Positions 14,453 through 56,595 of a stretch of DNA of 64,000 bases are shown one piece after another. The translations under genes were made by a program, and so were the position numbers. The stretch's first letter is position 1. Every line of letters begins with the position of its first letter. This DNA is from Squalus acanthias. Taxonomy: Eukaryota. The DNA is taken from positions 96,846,001 to 96,910,000 of the forward strand of contig CM059432.1 in NCBI GenBank assembly GCA_030390025.1, read 5' to 3'. Under the pieces are notes generated by a model. It did not search any database and was not told the DNA's origin. It saw only the letters and a list, made by a program, of their open reading frames with translations.

Positions 14453-14677
14453 AATAACAACAGAAAATGCTGAAAATACTCAGCAGGTCAGGCAGCATCT
14501 GTAGAGAGAGAAACAGAGTCAACGTTTCGGGTCGAGGACCCTTCGTCAGAACCCTTCGTCCTTGATCTGAAATGTTGACTCTGTTTCTTTCTCCTCAATG
14601 CTGCCTGACCTGCTGAGTGTTTCGAGCATTTTCTGTTGTTATTTCAGATTTCCAGCATCCGCAATATTTTGCTATTG
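14453..14677. mobile_element. Penelope-derived fold-back (inverted pLTR ends) with a hammerhead motif on the minus strand
   Basis: Arms of about 80 bp (AATAACAACAGAAAATGCT... / ...AGCATTTTCTGTTGTTATT) plus the CAGATTTCCAGCATCCGCA tail shared with 60036-60070. Confidence 0.85.
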
Positions 14678-20158: not shown

Positions 20159-22279
20159 TAGAATCATAGAATAATACAGCACAGAAGGAGGCCATTCAGC
20201 CCATTATGCCTGTGCCGGCTCTTTGAATGAGCTGTCCAATTACTCCCACTCACCTGTGCTTTCCCCATAGCCCTGAAAATGTTTCCCCTTCAAGTATTTA
20301 CCCAATTCCCTTTTGAAAGTTAGTGGCCCGGAATTTGTGATAAGAATAACTATGAAGCTATCAGCACTCACCGTTATAACGGAGGAAATCTGACAGTAAC
20401 TTCTAGCATACGCACATGCGCAATTAAACACGGAAATCGGGATGTTGCTGTCACAGATACACCGCTCATCCACAGGGTGCACTGTAACAGTCCTCGCTGA
20501 GAGACTCGTCATTGGAATCAATGTCATGAACTTGGGGTACTTGCCCATTAGTTCCCCACTAAACACGCCAGAAAAAGTTAGGAGTAAATTAATTTTTAAC
20601 GGTGTGATAAGTGATAATTACTGCCAAACGACCTCTGTGGCCCTGAAAATGTAATCTTACAAGTGTGGAATATCATTTCTTCAGAAGTTAATTAGATTTA
20701 AAAAAAAGTACACTATTTTTTTTAAACTTTTTCTGTATGTCTCCTTTATCTCTCTTTCTTAATCCCACCTGTCTCTCCCAATCTTTATTTTACTTTCTGT
20801 ACATGATTTAAATCTAATTTATACTTCATGCTTTATACTTCCTGGATTAGACTCTGTGGGGGCTAAATTGCATAGCCCCTGAAAACGGGCGCGGGGATCG
20901 CAATGTACGATTAACCCGCGCCCATTCAGTGTAATACAGGCAGCACGCCAACTTTGTGCTGCCTGCTCATTATAATAATTTCAGCGTGCAGTCAGCGCTA
21001 ATCACGCTGTTCATCTGCTGCATGCATCAGCAGGGGGTGGAAAATTGTTAGTAACTTGCACTAATTAAAGCTACCCTGCACTATTTAAAGCTAGCCTGCA
21101 CCTCTTACAGGGAGGTGCATTGTGACTGGAACAGGTGCTGGGAGTCGTTCTGCAACTGAATCTGACCTGGGAAAGAGTGAAGAATGGCTGACCATGGGAT
21201 AGATTGGGCACTGGAGGTCTTGGTGGAAGAGGTGGAAAGGAGGATCGGTGTTCTGTATCCTCGGGGGACCAGGATGCGAAGAAAGCTGCGGAGGTCAATG
21301 CCAGTAGTTTAGCCTCAGGGACCTGGATGCAGTGCCGGAAGAAGTTTAATGACCTCACACAAGTGGTCAAGGTCAGTGAGTGCATCTTCAAATACCATAT
21401 CCTACCAACTGCACCACTAGTCTCAGCCACTGCTCAATTCACCACACCCCCATCACTCACCTACCAACTATCCCTATCAATCAGGACTCATACCTAACAT
21501 TCATATGCTTCACCACACCCTCACACATTTAGCACTGTTGCAAGCCTCACACCCACATCTCACAGCTTGCACACACTGGCAGCTATTCAACTATGACAGC
21601 CACATCACCCAAACATATTGCACAACCCTCACTGACATACTTCCCTCTCTCTTGCAGGACAAGGTTGCACACAACAAGGAGGCAGCAGGAACTAATCGGA
21701 GGGGGATAAGCACATCTGCATGTTCTAACCCCCATGGAGGAGACAGTTCTGGCCATTATGGGAAGGGCCATTGCTGAGGCCGTGGCCACCGGTGGGACTG
21801 AATCCATTGAAGATGATGGTATCCTCATATCTAATCCTCCTTCTCACATCCCACTTCTCCCTCATCCCTAACTCTCTTCTGACTTACAAGCTTCAGATGC
21901 TTTAAGCATGCACTCCTTAATTTTGCCTCCTCCCTCACCACAACCCAACCCTTGTCTCTTTTTCATTTCAGATACCCAAGAACTACAACCTGCCCAAGCA
22001 GTGGAGGAAGAGCGGGAAGACAGTGATGATGAAAACACACTGTCACTTGATTTCACACTCGCAGCCAGCAGTTCAGATAGTGACACTGCGCATATCTTAG
22101 AGTATAGCATAAAGGCGGGAGCTGCATGTGGTGAGACACCGAGCACTAGTGCGCCGCAGTCAGGGCAGGAGGCAATGCTATCACAGGTGCCAGTTCACCT
22201 GAGGGCAAGGTTGCACATGAGTTCTGCTGCAGAGGACTCAGAAGAGGAGTTTTGTGGGCCAGGCTGCAGAAAAAGGCTG

Positions 22280-22837
22280 TGATTTTAATTCTCCGGACCA
22301 CTCCGACTCTGACCTCTCTGTCATGGCCTCCTCCATTGTTCCAATGAAGCTCAATGTAAGCTCAAGGAACAGCACCTCATCTTTCAATTAATCACTAGAC
22401 AGCCTTCCGGACTAAACATTGGGTTCAACAATTTGAGCTCATAATCTCTGGCCCCATTTTGCCGGCGGGCAGCTGCTGTTGATGATTCTGATATTCACAT
22501 TTACACCTCTTCTATAACGATATTTTGTTTCTTTACTTGTCCCATTACCATCTCCTTTCACCTTGCACCATCATCCCTTTTATCATTTAATCTCTCCTGC
22601 CTTCCATCCTATCACAGACCTTCCCATTTGTTCTTTCCTCCCCTCCCCCTTTTCCTGCCTCTGTATTTGCTTAAAACCTGTTACATCTTTAATTTTTTCT
22701 AGTTCTGACGAAAGGTCATCAACCTGAAACGTTAACTCTGTTTCTCTCTTCACAGATGCTGCCTGACCTGCTGAGTATTTCCAGCATTTTCTGTTTTTAA
22801 TTCAGATTTCCAGCATCCACAGTATTTTGCTTTTGTC
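22280..22837 (+). mobile_element. 5'-truncated Penelope (end of GIY-YIG ORF plus pLTR with hammerhead at 22701-22737)
   Basis: Matches 59490-60070; imperfect 13-bp TSD CAGAAAAAGGCTG (22267-22279) / CAGGAAAAGGTTG (22838-22850). Confidence 0.9.
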
Positions 22838-23751
22838 CAGGAAAAGGTTGATCGGTGTACACACCGAAATGCTTGGTGCATTGCAGGCTGCCAGAAAGCT
22901 TGCATTCAATGTCAAGGAGCATGGAGGAGTCCAGCACCAATTTGGCACAGGGCTCTGCGCAGAACTTGGAGCCCATCCTTTCCAGCATGGAACTGGTGGC
23001 CAACTCCATCACCACACTTGTCGAGCCAACCATGATGCAGCGTCTGATGGCCGATGTCTCAGCTTCCATTGCAGCACAAGCAGCAGCCACCCAACGTCTG
23101 AGTGCTGCAGTGGAAGCTCAGACTGATGCCATCATGGCTCAGGATACCAGTGTTCAAAGCGACTTGCAGGGGGTCATAGCAGTCCAGCAATCAGTCCTCC
23201 AACAGATTACTGGATTGGTGAGGAGTTGTTGCGGGGGAATGGCAGAGGCTCCATGGAGCACGAACTTGCTGTCCTTTCTCAGGATGACAGCATTTATGCT
23301 CCCAACCCTGCCACTCTGCCAGTGCCTTTGCTGTTGCCCATCAGCCAGCCAGCCAGACCAGACTGCTGCCGCCCATGCCGAGATGGTGCAGTATGAAGCC
23401 GGGCCTTCTAGTCTCTTAGCTGCTCGAGGTCGTCTTCCAAGGCCATCTGCAGACTGCTCCACTGAAAGTCAGTAGCCTTCCACCAGCCATGCTGCAGCCA
23501 CTGGGGTAGCACTGCGTAGGAGCACTAGGACAGGTAAAGGCACACGGAAGACAGTCAAAATGGAATGCACAAGGGTGATTCATTTATTTTTGTATGCAAT
23601 ATGGCATGATTTAATTTATAAATTTGGATTGGAATGTGTATTTTGTGTTGGCTTTTACTTTTGCATTGTGGGCAAGAGGAAGATGTGATAGTCAGTGACA
23701 TAGAAGGTAAGGAATGTGTGACTTTTGGTGAATGGGAAATTGAGGTTGAGG

Positions 23752-24918
23752 CTACTGGTATTGCACTTGAATTAGTTCTTCACATACAGCCCAGGCAGAA
23801 AGGGGCTGTCTGGGTTGCAGAATCCCTTCCTCTTCCGCCTCTTCTGCCTCCTCATCTTCCTCTTCCTTCTTCTCCTGCTCCTCAGCTTCTCGCCTGATAG
23901 GTGGTGGCAAGGGCTGTTCCCTCATGATGGCAAGGTTGTGCAGCATGTAGCATACCACCACAAATCTTGAGACCCGCTCAGCTGAGTACTGCAGGGCTCC
24001 TCCAGAGTGGTCCAGGCAGCGGAATTGTTGTTTCAGCACGCCAATAGTCTGCTCTGTCAGATCTCTTGTGGCAGCATGGCTCTCATTGTATACATGCTGC
24101 GCACGTGTGCGAGGGTAGCGAACCGGAGTCCTGAGCCATGTCGTCAGTGGCTAGCCCTTGTCTCCCAGTAGCCACCCTTTGGTTTGCTGTGGTGGTTGAA
24201 ATACAGCAGGCCCAGAGGACTGCCGCAGAATGATCACATCATGACTGCTGCCAGGATACCGGGCATTGACCTGCATGATGCACTGCCTATGGTCACACAC
24301 CACCTGCACGTTGAGGGAGTGGAATCCCTTTTGGTTCAGGTACATGGCAGAGTTGACATGAGGAAGATGCAAAGCAATGTGTGTCCAGTCATTGGCACCC
24401 TGCATTATGGGGAAGCCTACAATCCTTGAAAACCCTTGTGCTCGCTCCGCCTGCTTTTCTCTGGCAAGAGGGAATGAATTGAAGTTATCTCTCTTTGAAT
24501 AGAGAGCCTCAGTGACCTCCCTTATGCAGCAGTGCACTGCAAACTGCGAGATGTTGCTAATATCTACAGCAGCAGCCTGGAAGGAGCCAGACGCATAAAA
24601 GTTGATCACCATGGTCACCTTCACAGCCACTGGCAATGTGGTCCCTGCCCCGCTCTGAGGTTGGAGTTGTGCCTGCAGCAGTTGGCAGATTTCAGTGACG
24701 ACCTCCTCAGTGAAGTGCAGACGTCGCAAACATTGTTCATCGCTGAAGTTCAGGTACGAGATTTGTTCCCTGAACACCTTGGGTGAATATGGCCGCCTTC
24801 TGAGAGCCCTTCTCCCCCTCCTCCTTCCTCTTCTAGCAACTTGTCCTGCTCTGCATGGCCTCTGTTCATTCTCCCATTCATGCTCAATTCTGAGAGGAAG
24901 GCTTACTAGTGCACCCAT
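23752..24918 (-). pseudogene. Harbinger (HARBI1-like) DDE transposase pseudogene
   Basis: AVKVT...[26 protein letters not shown] then a stop at 24151; LKQQFRCLD and MLHN follow downstream. Confidence 0.9.
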
Positions 24919-26423
24919 GTCTGGGAGCAACTGGCTGTGTAGAAGCCTTGAAGTCAGCAAAAAGTCCATCAGCACCTGCCAAACCACTCTCTGTAGACTT
25001 TTGAAACTTGAAACAACTGTGGAAAGCACCAAAAACATGTTGAATTGTAGCAACAGCCAGAAGAAATCAACCAGCAACTAACCTGTAAGTAATTGATGAT
25101 CCCTTTAAATAGCACTGGTGGAGGGTCCTTCATGCTGCTTAACATTGTGTTCAGCTGTGTGATGTTAAGAGAGGGCATAGGCTGGAGCATGAAGCTCTAA
25201 AATAGCAGCGCTGGCATAAAATCAGCATTGCACACTGATTGACATCATGATCTGCCTGCTCTGCATACTTCTGGTGGACGTTAAGTGCACGTGTGCGCTA
25301 ACCCCTTCGCTAATATGGCATTCGCTGCAATTTGTGTCAGAAGTGTGTGCATGCACCGCAGACGCCATTTTGGAACCTTATAGGGCCTCGTAGCACCCAA
25401 CAAATGGGCTCTATCAAGCCTAATTTCACCTCTGCGTGTCTCAGTGAGCATTCTTCAATTTGATTGGTTGAAGAGCTTCGCTGTTGTTTTCCTTGCTCAC
25501 ACATGCCACAGAACCCCTGTTGAGGGCACCGTGCTGGCAAAGATGGCGGATTAGAGAAATCTTCGCTGACAAGCCCGCGAAAAGTCTGAGTGCCATTCCT
25601 TCGCCACTGAGAGCAAAATCCAGGCCAAAATTGAATCTGCTTCCACAACCCTTTCAGGCAGTGCATTCCAGATAATAACAACTCGCTGTGCTAATTACCT
25701 TAAATCTGTGGCCTTGATTACCAATCCTTCTGTCACTCGAAACATTTTCTCCTTATTTACTCTATCAAAATTGTTCATGATTTTGAACACCTCTATCAAA
25801 TCTCCCCTTAAGCTTCTCTGCTCTAAGGAGAATAACCCCAGTTTCTCTAGTCTCTCCATGTAACCGAAGTCTTTCATCCCTGATACCATTATCGTAAATC
25901 TCCGCTGCACCCTCTCTAAGGACATGACATCCTTCTTAAAGTGTGGTGCCCAGAATTGGCCACAATACTCCAGCTGGGACCTGATCAGTGTTTTATAAAG
26001 GTTTACCATAACTTCCTTGCTTTTGAACTCTTATGTCTCTATTTATAAAGCCAAGGATCCCTTTGGCCTTTGTAATAGCCTTCTCAACTTGTTCTGCCAC
26101 CTTCAAAGACTTGTGTATGTGCACCCCTAGGTGTGCAGATCGGAACAGAGTGTTAAGCTATGAGTTTGGTGAGTGAGGGAGTTCGGGGAGGGAGGTGTTC
26201 CTTTCTTTTTCCATCTTTGTCAGCTTCCAGGAGAGCAGGAGCTAAAAAGCTGCACAAGAGGGGACAGAGAACCAGTGGTGAGTATTTCTACACTATTTCT
26301 ACATTCCAGTCATTAAAGTAAAAGTAACATCTCTAGTTTCGAGTAAGTCATGTATAAAGGGAAGTAAGGTCCCTAGTGTATTTAATAGTATTTAATTTAA
26401 AGGGTGTAAATTAAGGGTAGGAC

Positions 26424-27374
26424 ATGGCAGGGCAGCTCGGCAGCGTGGAGTGCTCCTCCTGTGCTGTGTTGGAAGTCAGGGACACTTTAGGTGTCCAGGG
26501 CGAACACATGTGCAGGAAGTGTCTCCAGCTGCAGCTACTTGAAATCTGCGTTTCGGAGCTGGAGCTGCGGCTGGAGTCACTGTGGAGCATCCACGAAGCT
26601 GAGATCTTCGTCGATAGCACGTTTAATGAGGTGGTCACACCGCAGATAAAGAGTGCACAGGCAGACAGGGAATGGGTGACCACCAGACAGAGTAAAAGAA
26701 CTAGGAAGGTAGTGCAGAAGTCCCCTGGGTCCATCTCCCTCTCCGACAGATTTTCCGTTTTGGATACTGATGGGGGAGATGGTTTCTCAGGGGAATGCAG
26801 CAAGAGCCAAGTCCATGGCACTACGAGTGGCTCAGCTGCACAGGAGGGGAGGAAAAAGAGTGGGAGAGCAATAGTGATAGGGGATTCTATCGTAAGGGGA
26901 ACAGATAGACGTTTCTGTGGCCGCAGACGTGATTCCAGGATGGTATGTTGCCTCCCTGGTGCCAGGGTCAAGGATGTCACTGAACGGCTGCAGGGCATTC
27001 TGAAGGGGGAGGGCGAACAGTCAGAGGTCGTGGTTTACATTGGTACCAATGACATGGGTAGAAAGAGGGATGAGGTCCTGCAACAAGAATTTAGGGAGCT
27101 AGGTAGCAGATTAAAAAGCAGGACCTCAAAGGTTGTAATCTCTGGATTACTCCCGGTGCCACGTGCTAGTGAGTATAGGAATAGGAGGATAGAACAGATG
27201 AATGCGTGGCTAAAGAGTTGGTGCAGGAGGGAGGGCTTTAGTTTCCTGGATCACTGGGTCTGCTTCTGGGGAAGGTGGGACCTGTACAAGTCGGACGGGT
27301 TGCACCTGAACCGGAACGGGACCAACATCCTTGCGGGGAGGTTTACTAGTAATGTTGGGGGGGGTTTAAACTAA
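26424..27374 (+). CDS. CR1 ORF1 protein, 316 aa, uninterrupted (zinc finger/leucine zipper + SGNH esterase)
   Basis: CSSC...CRKC, heptad leucines, GDSIVRG, IGTNDMG, DGLHLN. Confidence 0.9.
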   Translation: MAGQLGSVECSSCAVLEVRDTLGVQGEHMCRKCLQLQLLEICVSELELRLESLWSIHEAEIFVDSTFNEVVTPQIKSAQADREWVTTRQSKRTRKVVQKSPGSISLSDRFSVLDTDGGDGFSGECSKSQVHGTTSGSAAQEGRKKSGRAIVIGDSIVRGTDRRFCGRRRDSRMVCCLPGARVKDVTERLQGILKGEGEQSEVVVYIGTNDMGRKRDEVLQQEFRELGSRLKSRTSKVVISGLLPVPRASEYRNRRIEQMNAWLKSWCRREGFSFLDHWVCFWGRWDLYKSDGLHLNRNGTNILAGRFTSNVGGGLN

Positions 27375-27493
27375 CTTGGCAGAGGGATGGGATATGGAGT
27401 GGAGCTATAGTAGGGGGTGATGCACAGCCAAATATAGAGGAAAAAACAAGTCAGCCTGGAAGGCAGAGCAAATATGTAACGGAGCAAAGGAGT

Positions 27494-30295
27494 ATGGCAA
27501 GGCTGGATGGCAATTATTTTAATGCAAGGAGTCTTGCGAGTAAGGCAGATGAATTGAAGGTGTTGATGAACACATGGGAGTATGATATTGTTGCTATCAC
27601 AGAGATGTGGTTGAGGGAGGGGCAGGACTGGCAGCTCAATATTCCGGGGTATAAAATCTTGAGGCGAGACAGAGGGGGGTGTAAAAGAGGAGGGGGTGTC
27701 GCAATATTAATCAAGGAGTCAATTACTGCTGTAAGGAGGGATGATATCTTAGCAGGTTCCTCTAATGAGGCCATATGGGTAGAACTTAAAAACAAAAAGG
27801 GGCAAGCACTTTGCTGGGAGTGTACTCTTGGCCCCTAAACAGTCAGGGGGAGATAGAGGAACAGATATGTAGGCAAAACTCAGAAGTGTAGAAATAATAG
27901 GGTAATAATAGTAGGGGATTTCAACTTCCCCGATATTAACTGGGATAGTCAGAGTGTGAAAGGCTTAGAGGGTGTGGAATTCTTAAAGTGCATCCAGGAG
28001 AGCTTTTTGAGCCAGCATGTAGAAAGTCCTACAAGAGAAGGGGCGGTACTGGACCTAATTCTAGGGAATGTAGCTGGGCAAGTGGTAGAAGTGTTAGTAG
28101 GAGAGCATTTTGGTGACAGTGACCATAATTCGGTGAGATTTAAGGTAGTCATGGAAAAGGACAAAGATGGACCGGAAATAAAGGTTCTAAATTGGGAGAA
28201 GGCCGATTTTAATATGATAAGGCAAGATCTGGCCAAAGTGGACTGGGATCAGCTACTTGTAGGAAAATCCACATCAGAGCAGTGGGAGTCTTTCAGAAAG
28301 GAAATAGAGAGAGTACAACGGCAACATGTTCCCGTAAAGGTCAAGGGTGGGACCAACAAGCCCAGGAAATCCTGGATGTCAAGGGATATACAAGAATGGA
28401 TGAGGAAAAAAAGGGAGGCTTTTGGCAGATACAAAGGACTAAAAACAGTGGAAGTCCTAGAGGAGTATAGAAAGTGCAGGGGGGTACTTAAAAAAGAAAT
28501 TAGGAGAGCGAAGAGGGGGCATGAAATAACACTGGCGGGCAAAATAAAGGAAAATCCCAAGGTGTTTTATAAGTATATTAAGGGCAAGAGGTTAACCAGG
28601 GAAAGAGTAGGGCCCATTAGGGACCAAAGTGGCAATCTGTGTGTAGAGCCAGAAGATGTAGGTGGGGTTTTAAATGAATATTTTGCATCTGTGTTCACTA
28701 TGGAAAAGGACGATGTAGGCATAGAAATCAGGCAGGGGGATTGTGATATACTTGAACAAATTAGTATTGAGAGGGAGGAGGTACTAGCGGTTTTAGCGGG
28801 CTTAAAAGTGGATAAATCACCAGGCCCAGACGAGATGTATCCCAGGCTGCTGTGTGAGGCAAGGGAGGAGATTGCAGGGGTTCTGACACAAATTTTCAGA
28901 ACCTCTCTGGCCACAGGGGAGGTGCCAGAGAACAGCTAACGTAGTACCATTATTCAAGAAGGGTAGTGGGGATAAACCAGGGAATTACAGGCCAGTGAGC
29001 CCAACATCAGTGGTAGGGAAATTATTGGAAAAAATTCTGAGGGACAGAATTAGTCTCCACTTGGAGAGGCAAGGATTAATCAAGGATAGTCAGCATGGCT
29101 TTGTCAGGGGGAGATCATGACTGACCAATTTGATTGAATTTTTCGAGGGGGTGACTAGGTGTGTGGATGAGGGTAGTGCAGTTGATGTGGTCTACGTGGA
29201 CTTCAGGAAGGCTTTTGACAAAGTCCCGCATGGGAGACTGGTCAAGAAGGTAAGAGCCCATGGGATCCAGGGCAACTTGGCACATTGGATCCAAAATTGG
29301 CTTAGTGGCAGGAGGCAGAGGGTGATGGTCAAAGGTTGTTTTTGTGACTGGAAGCCTGTGTCCAGTGGTGTACCGCAGGGATCGGTGCTGGGTCCTTTGC
29401 TGTTTCTAGTGTACATTAATGATTTAGATATGAATGTAGGAGGTATGATCAGTAAGTTTGCAGATGACCCGAAAATTGGTGGGGTGGTAAATAGCGAGGA
29501 GGGAAGCCTTAGGCTACAGGACGATATAGACGGTTTGGTCTGATGGGCAGAACAGTGGCAAATGGAATTTAACCCTGAAAAGTGTGAGGTGATGCATTTT
29601 GGGAGGACCAACAAGGCAAGGGAATACACAATGAATGGTAGGACCCTAGGAAGGACAGAGGATCAGAGGGACCTTGGTGTGCATGTACATAGATCCCTGA
29701 AGGCAGCAGGACAGGTAGATAAGGTGGTTCAAAGGCATATGGGATACTTGCCTCCATTAGCCGAGGCATAGAATATAAGAGCAGGGAGATTATGATGGAG
29801 CTGTACAAAATGCTAGTTAGGCCACAGCTGGAATACTGTGTGCAGTTCTGGTCGCCACACTATAGGAAGGATGTGATTGCATTGGAGAGGGTGCAGAGGA
29901 GATTCACCAGGATGTTACCTGGGCTGCAGCGCTTCAGCTATGAAGAGAGACTGGACAGGCTGGGGTTGTTTTCCTTAGAGCAGAGAAGGCTGAGGGCGGA
30001 CCTGATTGAGGTGTACAAAATTATGAGGGGCATAGATAGGGTAGATAGAAAAGAACTTTTCCCCTTAGTAGAGGGGTTAATAACCAGGGGACATAGTTTC
30101 AAGGTAAGGGGCAGGAGGTTTGGAGGGGATTTGAGGAAAAACTTTTTCACCCAGAGGGTGGTTGGAATCTGGTACTCACTGCCTGAAAGGGTGGTAGAGG
30201 CAGGAACCCTCACAACATTCAAGAAGCATTTAGATGAGCACTTGAAACGCCATAGCATACAAGGCTACAGACCAAGTGCTGGCAAATGGGGTTAG
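27494..30295 (+). pseudogene. CR1 ORF2 (APE endonuclease + reverse transcriptase), several frameshifts and stops
   Basis: Consecutive ORF fragments with NARS, DSDHN, KSPGPD, DFRKAFDKV, GVPQGSVLGP, FADD and RPQLEYC motifs. Confidence 0.92.
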
Positions 30296-31003
30296 AATAG
30301 ACAGGGCTTGATGGCCGGCGCAGACACGATGGGCCAAAGGGCCTCTTTCCGTGCTTTATAACTCTATGACTCTCTTGCTGCACCCCCTTTAAAGTTGTAC
30401 CATTGAGTTTATATTGCCTCTTCTCATTCTTCCTACCAAAATGAATCACTTTACACTTCTCAGCATTGAATTTCATTTGCCATGTGCCTGCCTATTTCAC
30501 CAGTCTGTCTATGTCCTCCTGAAGTCTGTTACTATCCTCCTCACTGTTTACTACATTTCCGAGTTTCGTGTCATCTGCAAACTTTAAAACTATGCCCTGT
30601 ATACTCAATTACAGGTCATTAATATATATCAAAAAGAGCAGTGGTCCCAACACTGACCCTGGGATCACCACTGCACCCTTCCCTCCAGTCTGAAAAATAA
30701 CTGTTCACCACTACTCTCTGCTTTCTATTCCTTAGCCAATTTCGTATCCATGCAGCCATTGCCGCTTTAATCCTATGGGCTTCAATTCTTCTAACAGGTC
30801 TATTATGTGGCACTTTATCAAACACCTCTTGAAAGTCCACATACACAACATCAACCGCACTAACCTCATCAACCCTCTCCGTTACTTCATTGAAGAATTA
30901 AATCAAGTTAGTCAAACATGATTTGCGTTTAACAAATCCATGCTGGCTTTCATTTACTAACCCATATTTTTCGACGTGCCAATTAATTTTGTTCTGGATT
31001 ATT

Positions 31004-32464
31004 GGCCCGGTTACGGTCAGCGGCGAATGCATGGCCGGCCGTTCATTACACTTACCCTTGCCCAGACTTTCTGTGGGCTTTTGCACTGGAACTTGTAGTT
31101 ATTAGAGAGCCAAACCAGTGTGGCGCCCTCTACAGGGGAATCTGTGAACAGGGCAAGCAATGGTATGTCTCCTTAACCAATCAGATTGAAGAACCATTAC
31201 TGAGCCATGCAGGGGTGAAATTTAACCCCCAAAAAGGGTGGGTTGGGGTTGGGTGAAATGTTACAATTTAAAAAATCTGAAACCCGGCTCCAACCCTCCC
31301 ACTTTTGAGTTTAACGGAGGCGGGACAGGGGGCGAGCAGCCAAACCACTCCCAGGATGTGGGTTGGCCATTTAAATATTTTAATGAGTCTGGCAGCCTCA
31401 GATTTAACCCGTTTTGCAGATTTAATCCTGACCGGCTGGATTACCCGGACCTCAGGAAACCCGGCAGCTCAAGGGAGGCGAGGACAGCTTCGGGACCAGG
31501 AGGAGCAGAAATGCTTCCTTTTGGCCCCCCAAGCTTACATTCTTCCCTTGGATCTGAACCCCCATCAGCCCCCCCCACTATACAAAGGCCGGTGATGGGA
31601 CCCCCTCCTTGATCGGAACCGCCCCCCCAGAGACGGGAATCGAGGATTGGACCCCCCTCGGGGTATGGGACCCCACATCCCTGAGGTCAGGGATTGGACC
31701 TCCCCCATGATCCCAGTAGCAGCTGTAGGCTCTCTATCTGCTCCTGCGGCCTGCTCCAGAGTCCTACCCGCCCGACTGGAAGCCAAGCCTGTCAATCAGG
31801 CTGACTTCCGGCCGGCGATCCTGTCAAAGAAAAAAGTCGCATGTGGGGAAACCCAGACTTCGAAACTCCACCCCCCCCCCACCCCCCCGGCCTATGCAAC
31901 TCACTTCTGTCAATATCGGGGTTGCAGAGTCTAAACCAGGAAGAGTAAGTTAGAATATTTAACTCAATGCCAAATCATGTACAGAAAGCAAAATAAAGAC
32001 TGGGAAAGAATGATGGGATTAAGTGAGAGAGAGAAGAGACAGAAAGGAAAAGTAAAAAAAAACTATTAATTTTAAAACATTTTAATTATCCAACAATAAT
32101 TCAAATCTGAAGAAGAGACTCCACACTTGTAAAAGTTAATTTTCAATGCCAGAAAGGCCGTTTGACAGTAATTAAGACTTATCACGCTGTTAAAATTCAC
32201 TTGCACTTGAATGGACAACCCATCTTTTTCTGGCATGTTTAGTGGGTATCAAGTGATTAAGTACTGCAAATTCATACCCTTTCATGCCAAATCTCTTGCC
32301 AAGATAGTGAAGCTTGTGGAGGAGCAGGGCAACTCGGACAGCAAGTTCCTGATTTCCACGTTTAACTACGTATGTGCGGACACCGAAAGTTGCTGTCCGA
32401 TTTACTCCTTAATAACAGCGAGCGCTAGTAACCTCACCGTTATTTTCACTGCAAAATCCTGGTC
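31004..32464. mobile_element. Harbinger-type MITE, copy B (same family as 20325-25626, opposite orientation)
   Basis: Ends GGCCCGG.. / ..GCAAAATCCTGGTC; ATT duplicated at 31001-31003 and 32465-32467. Confidence 0.88.
31212..31923. mobile_element. GC-rich non-coding Harbinger-type element nested in MITE copy B
   Basis: Starts GGGGTGAAATTT, ends CAATATCGGGGTT; GCA duplicated at 31209-31211 and 31924-31926. Confidence 0.85.
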
Positions 32465-32689
32465 ATTGAATCTAAAAGTTTCCCCACCACTGCCGTTAGG
32501 TTGACCGGCCTGTAGTTGCCGGGTTGATCCCGCTCCCTTTTTTGAACAGGAGTGTAACATTTACAATCCTCCAGTCCCCTGGCACCATTCCCACTCTTTC
32601 GGGGGAGAATTCTCAAGGGGCAAGGTGGCTGAAGGCTTAGCAACTAAAAGCACAATAATATTGGACAGCTTAACTCAAATGCTTATATA

Positions 32690-37853: not shown

Positions 37854-40001
37854 ATGGAGAGGGTGAGAGAACGCGCTCATCGCTTCACCGAGCGGGCCTT
37901 GGATGCTCTGGTTGACGCAGTGGAGCGCAGACGATGCATGCTGTTCCCGGAGAGTGGTAGGAGGCCTTTGCCACGCGAGTTCAGAAGAGTGTGGAGGGAG
38001 GTGGCTCAGAGCGTCTCCTCCAGGAGCATGGTGCCCAGGACCCATGTTCAATGCCGCAAAAAGTTCAACGACCTCACTCGGGTCGTCAGGGTGAGTGGCT
38101 TTTTCTCAATACCTCTCCATCCCTCCATCTCAACCTCACTCTATGGCCAGAGGGTCTTAAAACCCCAATGCACAACACTCATCCAACACCTATGGCCCTT
38201 TCATCAAACACACACACACATTCTACACTTTGCATACAGTAAGGGCTATTCACCTATGGGAGGCACATCAGGCAAGACCATGGCTGCATACAGTAAGGGC
38301 TATTCACCTATGGGAGGCACATCAGGCAAGACCATGGCTGCATACAGTAAGGGCTATTCACCTATGGGAGGCACATCAGGCAAGACCATGGCTGTATATT
38401 GTAAGGGCTATTCATCTATGGGAGGCACATCAGGCAAGACCATGGCTGTATATTGTAAGGGCTATTCACCTATGGGAGGCACATCAGGCAAGACCATGGC
38501 TGTATATTGTAAGGGCTATTCACCTATGGGAGGCACATCAGGCAAGACCATGGCTGTATATTGTAAGGGCTATTCACCTATGGGAGGCACATCAGGCAAG
38601 ACCATGGCTGTATATTGTAAGGGCTATTCACCTATGGGAGGCACATCAGGCAAGACCATGGCTGTATATTTACTCAGATGCTGTCCTTTTTCTTGCAGGC
38701 TAAGCTGGCTCATAATCGGAGACAGCAGCAACGGACGGGTGGAGGGCGGCTTCAGCTGCAACCCCTCAGCGATCTGGAGGAGCGCGTCCACAGGATTGTG
38801 GCAAGCCGGGTGATCGGTCCCGTCGCCACTGGAGACGCCGACCCCGTTGTGGACAGCAATGGTAAGGTCATCACCTTTTTGTCCTCTGTCCTTCCACTTG
38901 TCCCTCACAATACCAGCCTTTGACACTTTCAATCCAACTTGCTAACTCGCTGCACTTATTCCTCCCTTACTGCCACCCTGTCCTCACGCTAAAGCCACTC
39001 TTGTACCTCCCTGCTTTCAGATGGTGATTCACCAGCTGAGGAGACGGGCCCTGAAGCTGCCACTGGGAGTGATGCTGCAGCTGAGGAGGAAGAGGAAGCC
39101 GGAGCATCAGTGCCACCCTCTCCCGAGGAAGCCCATGCCCACACTGGGAACACGCCTTCCCCGGAGGGGAGCAGGGGGGAAGGGGCTGATGATGGTGAAG
39201 CTCCAGGACCCAGCGGGTTGCAGCAACGCCATGGGGGGGGGGAGGGAAGAACGGGGGCCTTCTCCCCAGAGGGAGAGTATGCCAGACACTCCTACTGCAA
39301 TGGACGCAGAGGAGGAGCGGCTGATTGCAGAAATGAACAGCCAGGCGGTGGGCATGCACACTGAGCTCATGGGTGCAGTGGGAAGGGTGCCCGAATGCAT
39401 TGAGTCACTGGCAAGGAGTGTGGAGCACTTCGCTGTAGCACAGGCGGATGCCACACTAAAGCTTAGTGCTGCAATTCAGTCACTGGCTGCCAGGAACCCA
39501 TCTGAGACTGCTCTCATGCAGACTCAGATTGAGGCCACGCGAGCACTGACTGCTGCCATCCTCGATGGTTCGTGCACATGTCCCCGGGGCTGTCACCGCG
39601 CTGCAGCAGGCCAGCAATCTGTTCTCCGGCAAATTGCTCCGGATGCTGAAGTGCTGCCCCGTGGGAGTGCCAGTGTGTCGGGCGAGCAGGGAGTTGCTGT
39701 CCTCTCTCACGATGACAGCATTCCTGCTGCCAACACTGTCACTTCTCCACTGCACTTGCCACCGCCTGTAGGACAGACTGCTGCCGCCCATGCAGAGTTG
39801 GTGCAGTCTGCAGCCGGGCCCTCCAGGCCCAGAAGTGGTCGAGGCCGTCCTTCAGGGGCATCTGCAGTGTCAGGGTCTGACGAGCAGCAGCCTTCCACCA
39901 GCCTTGCTGCAGCCACTGAGGTCCCATTACGGAGGAGCAGTAGGGTTAGAAGGGGGGAAGTGCGCAAGGGAAGGAGATCACCCTCGAAGGGCAAAAAGTA
40001 G
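37854..40001 (+). CDS. Harbinger Myb/SANT-like DNA-binding protein; exons 37854-38090, 38699-38861, 39021-40001; one frameshift at G10 (39233-39242)
   Basis: RAHRFTERALDALV..W..VA..RTHVQCRKKFNDLTR trihelix motif; GTGAGT and GTAAGG donors, TTGCAG and TTTCAG acceptors with compatible phases; the same exon layout recurs in three other elements here. Confidence 0.85.
38231..38670 (+). repeat. Minisatellite, 8 x 54 bp, in Myb intron 1
   Basis: Unit TG(C/T)ATA(CA/TT)GTAAGGGCTATTCACCTATGGGAGGCACATCAGGCAAGACCATGGC; 3 copies of one variant, then 5 of the other. Confidence 0.98.
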
Positions 40002-40295: not shown

Positions 40296-41456
40296 CTAGA
40301 AGCGGCTTGCTATTAGTCGTTGACGGACAGCCCTTGCAGTTTGACCATTGTGGGCCGCCCTCCTGCCTTGGTGCTGCTGCTGATCATCGTCCTCGTCCTC
40401 TTCCTCCTCCTCCTCCTCCTCCTCTGGTGGTGCTACAAGGCCTGGTGGCATTGGCTGGGTCCTGAGGATTGCCATGTTGTGCAACATGCAGCACACGACT
40501 ACGAAGTTCGAAACTTGCTCAGGCGAGTACTGCAGGGCTCCTCCGGAATGGTCCAGACAGCGGAACCGTTGTTTCAGCACGCCGATTGTGCACTCAATAA
40601 TGTTCCTGGTTGCTTGATGGCTTTCATTGTACCGCAGCTCAGCAGGGGTGTTTGGCGTACGGAGCGGTGTCATCAGCCAGGTGCTCAATGCGTACCCCTT
40701 GTCCCCCAGAAGCCAACCAACTGGCTGATGCGGTGCCTCGAAAACTTCTGCCACAGTAGTCTGGCGCAGGATGAAAGCATCGTGGCAGCTGCCCGGATAG
40801 TGGGCATTGACAGCGAGTATCACCTGTCTGTGGTCACAGACCAACTGCACATTCAAGGAATGGAACCCCTTTCTGTTCCTGAATTCCTCTGCATTCTCTC
40901 GCGGAGCACGCAAAGCCACATGCGTGCAGTCAATGGCGCCCTGCACCATGGGGAAGCCCGCTACCCTCGCAAAGCCCAGAGCACGGTCACGCTGCTTGTC
41001 TGGGGTCATAGGGAAAGAGATGAAGTCTCGTCTCCTTCTGAAGAGGGCATTGGTGACCTGCCGGATGCAGCGATGCACCGCAAACTGGGAGATATTGGCG
41101 AGGTCCCCAACAGCAGCTTGGAATGAGCCAGTGGCGTAGAAGTTCAAAGCCACTGTGACCTTCACTGCCACCGACAGAGACGTCCTGGACCTCAGCTGAG
41201 GCTGCAGATCTGGCTGCAGCAGGTGGCAGAGCTCAGTGACCACCTCCTTGCTGAATCGCTGCCTTCGCAAACACAGCTCCTCGGACATATGGATGTAGGA
41301 GAGCTGTTCACGATATACCCTGGGAGGGTAAGCTCTCCTGTACATGCGCCTGATGGCCCTCCTCCGTCTGGCCATCATTGCCACTCTCTGTCTGCGTCTC
41401 ACTATCCTCCGATTCAGCTGGAGCAGGACGACGCCCCCAATCATTGCAGCCCCCAT
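40296..41456 (-). CDS. Harbinger (HARBI1-like) DDE transposase, 386 aa, intact
   Basis: Uninterrupted ORF from ATG 41456; catalytic motifs GAIDCTH, LLGDKGY and RNIIE, plus [27 protein letters not shown] and CCMLHN. Confidence 0.95.
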   Translation of the reverse strand: MGAAMIGGVVLLQLNRRIVRRRQRVAMMARRRRAIRRMYRRAYPPRVYREQLSYIHMSEELCLRRQRFSKEVVTELCHLLQPDLQPQLRSRTSLSVAVKVTVALNFYATGSFQAAVGDLANISQFAVHRCIRQVTNALFRRRRDFISFPMTPDKQRDRALGFARVAGFPMVQGAIDCTHVALRAPRENAEEFRNRKGFHSLNVQLVCDHRQVILAVNAHYPGSCHDAFILRQTTVAEVFEAPHQPVGWLLGDKGYALSTWLMTPLRTPNTPAELRYNESHQATRNIIECTIGVLKQRFRCLDHSGGALQYSPEQVSNFVVVCCMLHNMAILRTQPMPPGLVAPPEEEEEEEEEDEDDDQQQHQGRRAAHNGQTARAVRQRLIASRF

Positions 41457-43046: not shown

Positions 43047-46000
43047 GGGGGAGAAATTAATTGTAGCCCAGGAATGGGTGGTAACTTCAGAAAAGTTTGA
43101 GATTGGCGCTAATGAATCACGCTATACTCAAAATGAACTCTCATCGCTCAAAGAAAGGATGGGAGTGCTAAATCAAGGACTAATGGCCTAGCTCATGGTG
43201 CTACACTGAAAGCGCTAACCAATATCAGGTGCAGTCTAATCGTAAGTCATCATTGCCACAGGCTCTTTGCAGTTCTTAAAGGGGAGGTTCATTCGTGCTG
43301 CAGAACCTCATTTTCAGCATTGCTGGCTGTGAACCTGTGTGAGCAAACATAAGCAGGCCAAGACCAAGGAGCCGGACCACTCAAGCAGGTGTCATGATAG
43401 CAGATCCACGCCCCAGGGAGAGAGCCTGCAGATTTTCAGACCAAGCATTGGAGGAGTTGATGTCCGCTGTGGAGAGACGGAGGGTGGTGCTCTACCCGGC
43501 AAGTGGCAGGGGGCACTCGCTGCAAGTCTTCCGCGCCATGCGAAGGGAGGTAGCGCAGCACGTCTCGGGCAGCACTGTGGTCTCTAGGACCCACACACTG
43601 TGCAGGAAGCAATTTAACGACCTCACTCGGGTGGTCAGGGTGAGTCAAAGCTTCAACAAATGCTACATACCACCATCTGAACCTCAGTCTGCACACACTG
43701 GCCAAAGCACCACACCCCCAGTACTCACCCACCAACAATCTCCACCTACCAACACTCACACCCACATCTCACACCTTGCACACAATTACAGCTATTCAAC
43801 TATGGCAGGCACATCACCCAAACACATTGCTCCACACTCACACACTTTTCTTTCTCTTGCAGGCCAAGGTCGCTCACAGCAGGTGGGAGCAGGAGTGCAC
43901 AGGCGGGGGACAAGCCGACACCCAACCACTGTCTGCGCTGGAAAATAGAGTGCTGGAGATTATTGGGTACCAGTTGGTGGACGCCGTGGCCAATGGCGAT
44001 GTTGACCCCCTTGGTCTGTTCATCCCTACTCCTTCTTCTCACATCCCACTTCCCCCTCACCCCACAAGCCTTTCACACTTTCCAGCTAATCATGCTATAT
44101 GCAAGCATTTCTCCCTTCCTGCCCCCCTCCCCTCACCTTAACCCAACTCTCGTGCGTTTATGCTTTCAGATAATGAGCAAGCACCTGAGCAGCCTGTCCC
44201 TGAGGGCACCGTAGAGAGCGAGGCGGGAGAAGAGGAGGAGGAAGAACACACCGCGTCACTGCATGTCTCACCCGCAGGCACCAGCTCAGATACTGGCACT
44301 ACAATAATATAGTAGCGGGATCTGCACAGGGTGATGCACCGGGAATGATAAGGCTGCAGCAAGGCCAGGGGGAAAGGGTAGCTCGGGGGCCAGCTCCCCG
44401 GAGGGCGGGTTCGCGCATGAGTTCTGCTGTACAGGACTCAGATGAGGACCTCAATGGGGAGGCCTTTAGAAGAAGGGTGATGGGCATGCACACACATATG
44501 ATAGATGCAATGGCAAGGGTGCCCAAGAGCCTCTCAGCAATGATAAGGAGCATGGAGGAGTCTGCCTCCAACATTTCACAAGGCTCTGTGCACAAAATGG
44601 AGCCCATCATTTGCAGTCTGCAAAGGATGGTCGACTCCCAGAGAGACTGTGGCGACCCAGACCTGATGCCACGTGTGATAGGCAAAGGCACAGTAATGAG
44701 GGGCACTAAGGGATTGCACAAGGTTGAATAGTTAATATTGTTGTTGTAAATATGTGTTAACTGATTATTGATAAATTTATTAATTCAGTTTGGATTATTT
44801 TGTGTCTCATTTCAGCTTTGTGCTGTGAAATGGCCTGTGACAGGGATGGAATGATGGGGATGTGGTGAGCAACGGGGATCTGGGATTTAATTTATTGAAA
44901 CCGCAGTCTGATGAGGCAGGCATAAAGCCGATTGAGTGGCTGCCTCCTCCCTTGCTCCTGTTCCTCGTTCTCGTCCTCCTCTTTCTCTTCCTGAGGTGGA
45001 CCCACAATCCCTGGTGGCAAGGGCTGGGACCTTATGATGGCCAAATTGTGGAGCTTGTAGCAGACGACAACGAAATGGGACACCTGCTCAGCCAAGTACT
45101 GGAGGGCTCCTCCCGAGTGGTCAAGGCAGCGGAACCATTGCTTGAGCACACTGATGGTCTGCTTGATGACGTTCCTGGTGGCAGCATGGCTCTCCTTATA
45201 TGAGTGCTGGGCAGGAGTGTTGGGGTTGCGGAGGGGAGTCATGAGCCAGGTGGACAGTGGACAGCCCTTGTCTCCAATCAGCCAGTCGCGAGCTTGATGT
45301 GTTGGCTGGAAGAGTGCTGGCACACCGGTCTGGCGCAAGATGAAGGCATCGTGGCTGCTGCCAGGATAGCGGGCATTCACATTGAGAATTCGCTGTCCGT
45401 GGTCGCATACCAACTGCACATTAAGTGAGTGGTAGCCTTTGTGGTTACAGAGATCTCAGGATTGTTATGCGGTGCCCGCAAAGTCACGTGGGTGCAGTCA
45501 ATGGCGCCCTGCACCATGGGGAATCCCGCTATCCTGGCAAAGCCAAATGCACGTTCGTCCTGCTTCTCTCTGGTGATGGGGAAGGAAATGTAGTCCCTTC
45601 TCCTACTGTAGAGAGCCTCTGTGACCTCCCGTATGCAGCGATGGATGGCGAACTGTGAGATGCTAGCTATGTCTCCTGTTGCAGACTGGAAGGATCCGCT
45701 GGCGAAGAAATTGAGGGCAACGGTGACCTTGACTGCCACTGGGAGACCCGTGGTCGTCTTGATCTGAGGCTGGAGGTCTGGTTACAGGAGGTGGCAGAGT
45801 TCTGTGACCACCTCCTTGGTGAAGTGGAGCCTTCTAATACACTGCTCGTCGCTTAATTGAAGGTAGGAGAAGTGCTGTCGGAATAACCTCAAAGGGTAAG
45901 GCCTCCTGTTGACATCCCTCATGTCCCTCCTCCTCCCTCTGGCCACACGTTCCAATCTTTCTCGCTGCCTGCGCTCCCTCCGCTGTAGATCCTGGAGGGC

Positions 46001-52390: not shown

Positions 52391-52764
52391 ATCAGTACAA
52401 ATTGGGAGAGACTGAATCGATATCACTCATTTTACACTACCACCCAAAGACAAAATTATCCCGCAATGTTCAATCCACTATTTAAATGCAAATTGTTGTT
52501 GTCAGTGAAAACTGATGTATCCCTCCTGTACCCATTGGATTGACAGCGCATACAGTTGCTTAATTGGCAATTGAACTGATAATGAAGCGCGACAGCTAAA
52601 ATCGCTGTAGCCTCACTCTATCGCAGGCGGGCAGAAATGCAACTGAAACCAGTGGGAGCCTGCTGAAAACCCGCTGGCAGTTAAAATTATACATCCCCCC
52701 CCCCCCCCGCCAACACCCGGACTAAGAATGTTTGGACTTTCTCCGAACTCTCAATATTAAGTAT

Positions 52765-55013
52765 AAACAGAAAATGCTGGAAATACTCAGCAGGTCAGGC
52801 AGCATCTGTGGAGAGAGAGTTAATGGCCGCGATTTTGCCAGCGCTCAGAGGGCAGGCTTGGAGGCGGGTCAGAGGTTAAATTCATTTTGATTGACGGCAG
52901 GTTCGGAACCCGCCGTCAACCCGCCTCTACGCAACTTTGCCAAGTGCCGGGTCTAGGAGTCCCGCTCAAACCCGCCACCAAGCGGCGGGAGAGGCACTTA
53001 AGGCAGTTAACAGCTTGTTCCACACCGTTCGCAAAACACGCCAGCGGATTGTGCTGAGTTCAGGAACTAAGCGAATTCTTGACAGCTGCACCTACAGCAT
53101 AAAAGTGGACCTGTAAAAAGGCTGACTTTCAGATGGCAGAACTTTGATTTTTGAGGTGTTGGAACACTTTTTGCAGGTCTATTGAGCTTGTAAGTGGTTA
53201 AGCTGAGATCCATATGCACTGTGACCTCCTTGGAAAACCCTCTCCCCACATTGCCTGAGTGCTTATAACATCTATTCCTCAACTGACATATATACCAGCG
53301 GAATGGGAACCATTTATACCCTCTCATCCTGGTCCTCAGAATCTGAGGAAGAGCAGCCGTGGCAGCAGCAGAACCCGGCACAACAGCAGCAGCAACAACA
53401 GGAGCGCCAACCTTCTCCTCACCCACCTGATGCTGCACAGGGCAGAGGGCGTCAGCGCAGGGCTGCACCGCACCGCAGGAGATTCCCCCAACACAGGGTT
53501 TATAGGCAGAGGATGAGCTTCCTCAACATGACTGAGCAGCAGTGCCAAAGGAGGCTGAGACTTTCGCAACAGGTAGTCGTTGACATCTGCGCAATGTTGC
53601 ACCAACACCTGGAGCCCAGAGGAGCGGGTGGACACTCCTTACCAGTGGCTGTCAAAGTCACCACCGCCCTCAATTTTTTGCATCAGGGTCCTTCCAGGGA
53701 TCATCAGCAGACATCAGCGGCATCTCCCAGTCAGCCGCACACACTTGCATGCACCGATACCCTCTTTGCAAAGGCGCACAATTACATCCACTTCTCCACA
53801 GATGAAGCAAGTGTAACCGTGCGTGCGGTTGGCTTTGCAAATATGGCAGGCTTGCCAAGGGTGCAGGGCATCGTAGACTGCACACATGTGGCCATTAGGG
53901 CACCCCATCACAACTAAGCTGTATTTGTGAACCGCAAGGGCTTCCACTCCCTTAACGTCCAGCTGGTATGTAACCACAGAAAGGACATTATGCATGTTTG
54001 CGCCAAGTTCCCTGGCCATTGCCATGACTCGTTCATCCTGCAGCAGTCTACTGTGCCTCAGCTCTTCAATCCGCCAACCCAACCTTCCAGATGGCTACTT
54101 GGAGACAAGATCTATCCCCTGAAGATGTGGCTAGTGACGCCGTTGAGGAGGCCATCAAACGAAGCTCAGGAGCGCTACAATGCGAGCCACATTTCCACCA
54201 GAGCCATCATCGAGCAAACCATTGGCTTGCTCAAAATGCGATTCAGATGCCTCGACAGATCAGGTGGAGCCCTACAGTACTCACCAGCCAGGGTCTCCAG
54301 AATCATCATGGTCTGCTGTGCACTGCACAACATCGCACAGCAGCGTGGCCTGAGGAGCAAGTGGCTCAGCGCACAGCCTCCTCCTCCTCACAGTGGGGAG
54401 GGGGGCTCTTGATGGTCCTGTGGGGGAGTAAAGGCATGAGTTAGAAATGTGATATTAATGTAGCAGGCACATTGAATTGTGCAGATGATCATAACTCAAT
54501 CTGTATGAACATCAGATGACATATCAGTCACTCATGCAATCTAACTGAGAGGGCTGCTCATCTCCTCAGCAATTTGCAGCCAGGCTGCTTTGGTTTGCTG
54601 AGGAGGCTTCCTCCATCCATTTGAGGGAACAGTACCTCTTGGCGCACTCTCACTCCCTCCACAAGAGCATGGAGGGAGTCATCATCAAATCTGGGAGATG
54701 CCTTGGGTCTTGCAGCAGTCATTTTCACAAGTGGTACACGGAGAAGCAGCAGAATAGGATTGATCAAAAACAAGGCTGCATGGGCCCCTTAAATGCAGCT
54801 GGCTGACAGGTCAGCAGAGGCGAGCAGCAGACCTGAACCCAATGATTGGGCTGGGTAGCGCGCATGATGGGCTTAATCAGCCCACTTAAGCAAAAATTGT
54901 AATTCCATTGCGGCTGAAACCGGCAGCGGGACCGGAACCCGCCGAACATCAAAGCCACCTCCAACCCACTTCCACTCGGAAAATCGTAGCCGGAACATTT
55001 CAGGTCAATGACC
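52765..55013 (-). mobile_element. Penelope pLTR fragment split by a Harbinger (52765-52824 + 54994-55013)
   Basis: AAACAGAAAATGCTGGAAATACTCAGCAGG...GAGTTAAT | AACATTTCAGGTCAATGACC rejoins to the pLTR sequence seen at 57660-57742. Confidence 0.8.
52825..54991. mobile_element. Harbinger with frameshifted transposase (+, 53303-54412) and Myb exon 1 remnant (-, ~54558-54720)
   Basis: Ends GGCCGCGATTTT / [44 protein letters not shown] and CCALHN motifs. Confidence 0.92.
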
Positions 55014-56045: not shown

Positions 56046-56595
56046 AAAGATTTTAATGACAACCTGTGTGTAAAGCTACACATTGTAGCTTTGGTTCACG
56101 TGGAAAAGAAGCAGTATCAGTGTAGGATTTACCAAAACAGTCCCATTGCCCTAAAGTAGAACTGTTAGAATCCACACAATCTAAGAAATGTAAGCATCAT
56201 ATTTCTAACTGTTACTTGTTGACATAAATTTGACACCTAATCTGGAATACATTATAGTAAATGTCTCTCAGTAAACTGACCCATTGTGAACCAGTCAAAC
56301 AGCTTAATGTACTCCACAAGTAGTGCTCTGTTTGATAAATGAACTTTCAGATCAAAACAAAATGTTTTGCCACGTGTTAAAAAAAATGCATTACCCTGCT
56401 TGTCAGTTCAAAAGGATATAAGTGATTTTCAGTTCAGGTACAGAATGCACAAAAACTTCTTGTTTTCCTTCTAAAATTAAATTGATAATAAAATTATTCA
56501 GATGATTAAAGACTGGCTATTAATTATACTTGAAAATATCCAATTCACCTCTCTTACGTTTCCTGGGGGTAGAATATGTTTTTTTCGGTTGAATT

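What the first reader, a model, noticed from the sequence alone, without database searches (positions are those of the whole stretch)
20325..32464. Two copies of one MITE family were hit at the identical nucleotide by two different Harbinger elements
Seen: MITE A (20325-25626) and MITE B (31004-32464) are reverse-complement homologues. In B orientation both break at ...CTGAG(ACAC/CCAT)-GCA-GAGTCTAA(T/A)CCAGGAAG. A holds a 4.6-kb Myb+transposase element (flanks GCA/ACA); B holds a 712-bp GC-rich non-coding element (GCA/GCA). Beyond the first ~11 bp (G.GGTGAAATT) the two inserts do not align by eye. Inference: independent, site-specific targeting. The MITE carries an optimal Harbinger target and may act as a mobile landing pad that seeds insertion sites for its own superfamily.
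Basis: partly seen in the sequence, partly recalled or inferred. Interest (0 to 1): 0.78.

Follow-up and report, generated by a model that had tools for sequence, protein, structure and literature searches.

The report
Harbinger hot spot inside a MITE
About three in ten copies of a small cut-and-paste transposon in this large animal genome have been split at the same three bases by many unrelated Harbinger-type transposons, most likely because that spot happens to spell the target sequence this class is already known to prefer; one-letter variants of the spot are hit several times less often.

Summary
Observation confirmed and extended. A and B are copies of one ~785-bp non-coding element (GGCC- inverted ends, AWT duplication). 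Both are split at one GCA by unrelated inserts (best E 0.4). In copies found by their ends alone, 20 of 76 are filled at that GCA; exact-pattern counts give 111 filled-type against 265 empty-type. The inserts come from at least 8 families, in both orientations, scattered over the host tree, so they are independent. The site, AGACAC-GCA-GAGTCT, matches the target logo of both insert families taken from their copies elsewhere, and resembles the published Harbinger3_DR target. A natural test: copies with A at the logo's most conserved position are about 50% filled, G about 9%, C about 17%, with no age difference. 'Landing pad' holds only passively. The MITE supplies most intact copies of this exact 15-mer (24 of 30), but only 1 of 58 other copies of the two insert families lies there, and a Penelope-type repeat holds more insertions. 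No selection or co-transposition was seen. This scan noted similar hot spots before in this genome (CR1 tails, Penelope repeat). Real and well quantified; known cause.

The parts
20325..20854 (-). Host MITE copy A, long arm, with terminal inverted repeat GGCCCGGAATTT at 20325; outer flank AGT at 20322-20324 (decayed duplication; paralogous empty sites read ACT)
20855..20857 (-). Target-site duplication copy (reads ACA on minus, GCA in the partner copy)
20858..25432 (.). Insert A: 4575-bp decayed two-gene Harbinger-type element, ends GGGGGCTAAATT and GAGGTGAAATT
   Evidence: family copies elsewhere 83-87% identical over the end searched
21184..21371 (+). First exon of the Myb/SANT-like gene of insert A, broken by a frame change
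   Evidence: no Pfam hit on this copy, Myb_DNA-bind_5 on two intact relatives
22277..22836 (+). Pieces of a Penelope-type element and its repeat nested in insert A
   Evidence: BLAST to 59487-60065; element ORF 58042-59652 has weak RVT_1 and GIY-YIG hits below Pfam cut-off
23752..25077 (-). DDE transposase frame of insert A, in-frame stop at 24151-24153
25433..25435 (-). Target-site duplication copy (GCA on minus)
25436..25626 (-). Host MITE copy A, short arm; left half-site AGACAC next to the GCA; terminal repeat GGCCTGGATTTT ending at 25626
31004..31208 (+). Host MITE copy B, short arm; outer duplication ATT at 31001-31003; left half-site AGCCAT (weaker allele)
31209..31211 (+). Target-site duplication GCA (left copy)
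31212..31923 (+). Insert B: 712-bp non-coding Harbinger-type element, ends GGGGTGAAATT and (family) AATATCGGGGCC
31924..31926 (+). Target-site duplication GCA (right copy)
31927..32464 (+). Host MITE copy B, long arm starting with right half-site GAGTCT; outer duplication ATT at 32465-32467

Best explanation
Many unrelated Harbinger-type transposon families inserted separately at the same GCA of this 785-bp MITE, likely because the flanking bases AGACAC-NNN-GAGTCT match the spaced palindrome that their transposition machinery reads in target DNA. Shown: the repeated, single-nucleotide, multi-family, two-orientation insertion; the match of the site to the logo of both insert families elsewhere; and that filling follows the base at the logo's most conserved position. 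Inferred: the MITE carried the site by chance, copied it to some thousands of places, and the transposase/Myb-like complexes then active filled a quarter to a third of them through sequence readout alone, as they would any equally good site. The MITE is a passive distributor of good targets, not an adapted landing pad.
For: Filled at the site: 8 of 25 (right end of B as query), 5 of 27 (left end), 7 of 24 (right end of A), counting copies that reach the site out of 29 each (read in 16, 29, 43; L096 and L185 re-read); 11 of 39 with the long arm as query. Other host positions with a Harbinger-type insert were seen once or twice each. Genome-wide exact counts 111 GCA+GG against 265 GCA+GA; 28 of 30 GG rows were insertions, one of them doubtful; 54 of 55 GA rows were empty. 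50 inserts fall into 16 clusters, 8 of them with both ends seen; family B occurs in both orientations, 10 and 7. Filled copies are scattered among empty ones; nearest-neighbour identity never above 0.90. Logos from copies outside the host: position -7 is A in 22 of 29 (family A) and 19 of 30 (family B, which includes the two host-site copies). Allele at -7, hand count of the first 100 listed rows each: filled A80 G12 C8, empty A33 G50 C17, odds ratio 8.1, p 2e-11; over the same chromosome span A against G 6.7, p 3e-5. The matrix predicts a loss of 2.7-3.2 bits (6-9 fold); the estimated rates differ 7-fold (G) and 4-fold (C). Allele groups have equal divergence (0.091, 0.090, 0.093; p 0.57) and at most one weakly linked column per pair. 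Outside the MITE the same 15-mer looks depleted: about 100 of 391 against 301 with a 4-base spacer and 284 expected. Literature: extended 15-bp target in vertebrate Harbinger (PMC2836001, PMC3016246, passages).
Against: The matrix does not account for all of the excess. Insert density in 399 kb of arbitrary DNA is about 5-7e-5 per base (41 ends, about 27 elements, lower bound), so the A allele is enriched roughly 10,000-fold, while the matrix gives about 1,200-fold: about 8-fold is unexplained (decay of flanks flattens the logo, but that was not tested). With a 7-bp matrix from family B alone the consensus allele ranked only 10th in the host and position 174 ranked first, yet 174 was hit once. 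The logos rest on 68 half-sites from the best-scoring copies only. Allele counts are by hand, from partial listings, for one subfamily context. The depletion outside the MITE rests on one control spacer. No biochemical test.
Confidence: 0.83

Rival explanations
1. Sequence match plus tethering: Myb-like/transposase complexes bound to the resident MITE's own ends, 220 bp away, or open chromatin at its CCAAT-like box, would raise the use of the site above what the 15-mer gives alone.
For: About 8-fold excess over the matrix prediction; position 174 scores nearly as well but was hit once; several other Harbinger-type inserts and host-in-host nestings occur in host copies. MITE-in-MITE preference is reported in rice and maize (PMC5172404, PMC6719617, passages).
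Against: The same 15-mer outside the MITE appears about 3-fold depleted, which fits a similar fill rate without the MITE. A repeat with no Harbinger ends is also a single-nucleotide hot spot.
Confidence: 0.1
2. Adapted landing pad or sink: the site is kept in the MITE by selection, because nested insertion spares genes or benefits the superfamily, and it directs a sizeable share of Harbinger traffic.
For: The site is near the matrix maximum (10.2 of 11.5 bits) and present in both host subfamilies; the MITE supplies 24 of 30 intact copies of the exact 15-mer.
Against: Only 1 of 58 other copies of the two insert families lies in it (95% upper bound 9%); my estimate is about 1% of all such insertions. 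About half of the exact-pattern copies carry weaker G or C alleles. The column is no more conserved than many others. A split MITE gains nothing visible: no composite copies.
Confidence: 0.05
3. One ancestral nested insertion was copied with the host, and the inserts later diverged or were replaced.
For: A and B inserts share about 11 terminal bases; 17 of 50 inserts belong to one cluster.
Against: Most host copies are empty; the inserts do not align; at least 8 families; both orientations within family B and family A; filled hosts are not a clade; both families are abundant elsewhere with other flanks.
Confidence: 0.02

Closest known systems
Harbinger3_DR / Harbinger3N_DR of zebrafish (target AAACACCWGGTCTTT; PMC3016246 and PMC2836001, passages read; the primary paper was not held)
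   Same: Two genes (DDE transposase, Myb-like), 3-bp duplication, 15-bp near-palindromic target with 6-bp half-sites; left half AAACAC against AGACAC here.
   Different: The centre is free here (duplication varies, leaning to T/A; GCA in the MITE) rather than CWG; the preference is softer and shared by many families; here it produces a hot spot in a high-copy repeat that can be read allele by allele.
Nested Tourist MITEs of rice and maize, e.g. Ditto targeted by many families (Jiang and Wessler 2001, seen only as cited in PMC5172404 and PMC6719617)
   Same: A PIF/Harbinger-type MITE is the repeated target of independent insertions by several families.
   Different: Animal genome; one nucleotide; coding and non-coding inserts; about 30% occupancy. 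Whether the rice cases are single-position I could not check, as the paper was not held.
NuwaI, NuwaII and Pangu groups of the PHIS superfamily (PMC4482050, passages)
   Same: Inserts have GGG/GGC ends, Myb plus DDE genes and C|NNN|G flanks as in NuwaII (C|TNA|G); the host's AWT duplication fits Pangu's ANT.
   Different: Insert duplications are not fixed TNA or CWG; no transposase was tied to the host; no tree was built.
Tx1L retrotransposon targeting Tx1D DNA transposons in Xenopus (PMC6719617, passage)
   Same: A mobile non-autonomous DNA element carries the site used by another element.
   Different: That is described as an evolved preference for the host element; here 57 of 58 sampled copies of the inserts lie elsewhere.

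Membership tests
PIF/Harbinger (PHIS) superfamily, insert A family | DDE transposase of the IS5/Harbinger type | tested here: met
   DDE_Tnp_4 above cut-off in both pieces, Plant_tran weak
PIF/Harbinger (PHIS) superfamily, insert A family | Second gene with Myb/SANT domain | tested here: met
   Met on two relatives; this copy is frame-broken and gave no hit
PIF/Harbinger (PHIS) superfamily, inserts A and B | Short terminal inverted repeats starting with G, 3-bp duplication | tested here: met
PIF/Harbinger (PHIS) superfamily, inserts A and B | Extended palindromic target preference beyond the duplication | tested here: met
PIF/Harbinger group in the narrow sense (PMC4482050) | TWA duplication | tested here: not met
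   Duplications vary freely; Nuwa-like groups fit better
NuwaI / NuwaII | Fixed CWG or C|TNA|G target and transposase clade | tested here: inconclusive
   C at -4 and G at +4 are favoured, centre is not fixed; no phylogeny made
Harbinger-type MITE (host) | Non-coding, short, terminal inverted repeats, 3-bp duplication, high copy | tested here: met
   785-bp consensus, GGCCCGGATTTTGC ends; AWT in 99 half-sites, 14 of 29 pairs identical; 6976 first-look candidates
Harbinger-type MITE (host) | Mobilised by a Harbinger-type transposase with matching ends | not tested
   No coding partner was searched for; assignment rests on end motif and duplication length
Element-targeting systems (Tx1L/Tx1D type) | Most copies of the incoming element lie in the host element | tested here: not met
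   0 of 29 (family A) and 1 of 29 (family B)

The most novel reading that the evidence does not exclude
The MITE actively draws its relatives: its own bound ends tether incoming Harbinger complexes to an internal near-perfect target, making it a self-spreading sink for the superfamily, and the common G, C and two-base-deletion alleles are escape variants favoured because unsplit copies stay mobile. The unexplained ~8-fold excess and the high share of weak alleles leave room for this.
Probability: 0.08. Interest if true: 0.7.

Novelty: new member of a known kind. Interest (0 to 1): 0.36.

Why it matters
It gives a ready-made in vivo measurement of Harbinger target choice: thousands of copies of one site, of one age, with natural one-base variants whose fill rates can be counted. 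That helps define targets for Harbinger-based site-preferring insertion tools and warns repeat annotators that about 30% of this family is split at one base. It does not show a new kind of system; extended target preference and MITE-in-MITE nesting are both in print.

Tried and rejected
Single ancestral insertion and composite transposition: rejected. CAG as the duplication (as in Harbinger3_DR's CWG): considered, rejected because element ends line up only with GCA across families. Allele effect as a by-product of subfamily age: not supported. Escape-allele idea: no age difference, and at least 15 other columns are as polymorphic. A 7-bp matrix from family B alone ranked the consensus allele 10th; 6-bp and pooled matrices rank the A allele first; both are reported. 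Pfam on this copy's Myb pieces: nothing. Rfam on the Penelope-type repeat: no hammerhead match, only hairpin-type matches below gathering score. Look-up of earlier notes by the MITE sequence: nothing relevant. Jiang and Wessler 2001 and Sinzelle et al. 2008 were not held. Seven paper searches (listings, plus passages of seven papers) showed no report of a single-nucleotide multi-family Harbinger hot spot in an animal MITE; the library lacks most subscription journals and Repbase reports, and no supplements were read. No protein homologue search, fold or tree of the transposase was made.
Full report
Setting. The window is G000:C8:96846001-96910000 in a 3.71-Gb genome. It is dense in LINE, Penelope-type and Harbinger-type repeats. 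Earlier notes call the genome shark-type; I did not test that.

1. The observation. A (20325-25626, reverse) and B (31004-32464) are homologous: long arms 408 of 558 aligned columns, short arms 149 of 214. Both are split in the same register. A has GCA | 4575 bp | ACA, B has GCA | 712 bp | GCA. The inserts do not align (best E 0.40). Insert A holds a DDE_Tnp_4 transposase frame with an in-frame stop at 24151-24153, and a Myb exon with a frame change. That exon gave no Pfam hit; two intact relatives did. Insert B is 56.6% GC with no frame above 86 aa.

2. The host. A consensus of 17 empty copies is 785 bp with GGCCCGGATTTTGC ends. Outer flanks read A-(A/T)-T in 99 half-sites; 14 of 29 left/right pairs are identical. 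This fits a Harbinger-type MITE; no coding partner was sought. Copy number is some thousands: 6976 first-look candidates; about 3,300 from the exact-pattern count divided by the share of sampled copies that match it (5 of 44; a lower bound); 2 full-length copies in 399 kb of arbitrary DNA.

3. How often the site is hit. Three searches used only a host end as query, 29 non-self loci each out of 39 listed. Among copies that reach the site, filled were 8 of 25, 5 of 27 and 7 of 24: 20 of 76. I dropped 4, 2 and 5 copies that end or break before the site; L096 was moved to empty and L185 confirmed as filled after re-reading. With the long arm as query, 11 of 39 were filled; one locus is shared. These are the best-scoring copies, not a random draw. 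A whole-genome exact count with a fixed 21-base context gave 111 ending GCA+GG and 265 ending GCA+GA, 29.5%. Of the first 30 GG rows 28 were insertions, one with a doubtful end, and 2 were point variants. Of 55 GA rows, chosen by allele, 54 were empty. Other Harbinger-type inserts in host copies were at about positions 47, 174, 176, 310, 345, 396, 474 and 500, once each except 500 (two loci that may be one duplicated). The peak is sharp.

4. Independence. Fifty inserts at the site form 16 clusters by end similarity. Some singletons may be the other end of a cluster, but 8 clusters have both ends seen. The B cluster occurs in both orientations (10 and 7), and so does the A cluster. In a tree of 120 of 142 host copies (rows under 450 columns dropped, site masked) filled and empty copies are mixed, and no pair exceeds 0.90 identity. 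The tree is star-like and weakly resolved, and a few allele labels on it are wrong where the left arm was outside the locus; alleles were re-called.

5. Why this spot. Copies of insert B elsewhere have flanks like CAGANAC-NNN-GTNTCTG; copies of insert A have A(A/G)A(C/G)(A/T)C before the duplication. Position -7 is the most conserved. The host site AGACAC-GCA-GAGTCT fits. On a pooled 6-bp matrix from 68 half-sites outside the host, the GAGACAC allele scores 10.2 of 11.5 bits, first of 770 host positions and above all ~243,000 background positions; G and C alleles lose 2.7-3.2 bits. Against this: a 7-bp matrix from family B alone put the consensus allele (GAGCCAT, B's own) tenth and position 174 first.

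6. A natural experiment. The host is polymorphic at -7. Hand counts of the first 100 listed rows: filled A 80, G 12, C 8; empty A 33, G 50, C 17. Odds ratio 8.1, p 2e-11; over the same chromosome span, A against non-A 4.5 (p 7e-5) and A against G 6.7 (p 3e-5). Scaled to the totals, about 50% of A, 9% of G and 17% of C copies are filled; over the same span only, 48%, 12% and 29%. Implied rates differ 7-fold and 4-fold, near the 9- and 6.5-fold of the matrix. Age does not explain it: leave-one-out divergence 0.091, 0.090, 0.093 (n 17, 17, 14 of 55; p 0.57), and at most one weakly linked column per allele pair. Seven copies with a two-base deletion in the half-site were all empty.

7. Is it a landing pad? 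In one narrow sense yes: 24 of the first 30 intact AGACAC-NNN-GAGTCT sites, of 391 in the genome, lie in this MITE. But 0 of 29 other copies of family A and 1 of 29 of family B lie in the site. With about 27 elements of these families per 399 kb (by my pairing of 41 ends), some 250,000 in all, the MITE would hold about 1%. A second hot spot takes more: in a Penelope-type repeat, 1,834 GG against 51,000 GT exact matches, 9 of 12 GG rows being insertions; 3 of 29 family B copies were there. Its fill rate per copy is lower, about 2.6%. That suggests a similar fill rate without MITE context; it is indirect and rests on one control. An excess of about 8-fold over the matrix remains (roughly 10,000-fold seen, 1,200-fold predicted).

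8. Mechanism. Shown: repeated independent insertion, logo match, allele dependence. [quoted passage not shown] Inferred: a symmetric complex reads two 6-bp half-sites around a free centre; the MITE carried a near-best site by chance and spread it; many families with the same inherited preference filled it.

9. What is known. MITEs nesting in MITEs, with Ditto targeted by many families, is reported for rice (PMC5172404, passage; PMC6719617, passage; the primary paper was not held). Nuwa and Pangu groups give the nearest duplication rules (PMC4482050, passages). PMC9179366 and PMC2213677 (passages) added background only. Seven searches found no report of this exact case, within a library that lacks most subscription journals; no supplements were read. 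Earlier notes of this scan describe like hot spots in CR1 tails and in the Penelope repeat of this genome; they are unchecked AI notes, and I had found the Penelope site before reading them.

Verdict. Real, strong and now quantified; a new instance of a known behaviour. The allele-resolved fill rates are the useful part. Interest 0.36.

Noticed in passing
window 57654-60036 and copies at 14453-14643, 22620-22836, 52753-52818: Penelope-type element (RT plus GIY-YIG, both below Pfam cut-off) between 99% identical inverted repeats. The repeat is a second single-site Harbinger hot spot (AAC duplication); one such insertion starts at window 52825. A hammerhead-like core is visible by eye (recalled motif); Rfam found none.
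   Followed up: partly
L031, L132 (and L005, L184): Host MITE copies nested in or next to other host copies, at AAT-type sites near host positions 396 and 310.
   Followed up: no
host consensus, many columns (e.g. 104, 111, 118, 174, 438, 595): At least 15 non-CpG columns are split about 50:50 with no linkage to the -7 allele, which suggests many source copies or exchange between copies.
   Followed up: partly
window 56595-57585 and 61547-62537: Two 991-bp LINE-like arms, 96% complementary, facing each other around the Penelope-type element.
   Followed up: no
window 38177-38770: 54-bp tandem array inside the Myb-gene region of another Harbinger-type element.
   Followed up: no
window 3903, 11160, 43048, 46511 and transposase-like stretches 40387-41374, 44956-45945, 53571-54331: Several more Harbinger-type elements with GGGGGAGAAATT ends; their flanks (e.g. 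AACTC AAA, AACAC ATG) fit the same half-site.
   Followed up: partly
L091 and L092: Two host copies 4 kb apart in inverted arrangement with the same scores, possibly a local inverted duplication.
   Followed up: no
inserts A and B, family B copies: Ends are unequal by one base (11 and 12 bases to the AATT/ATATT core) in both families.
   Followed up: no
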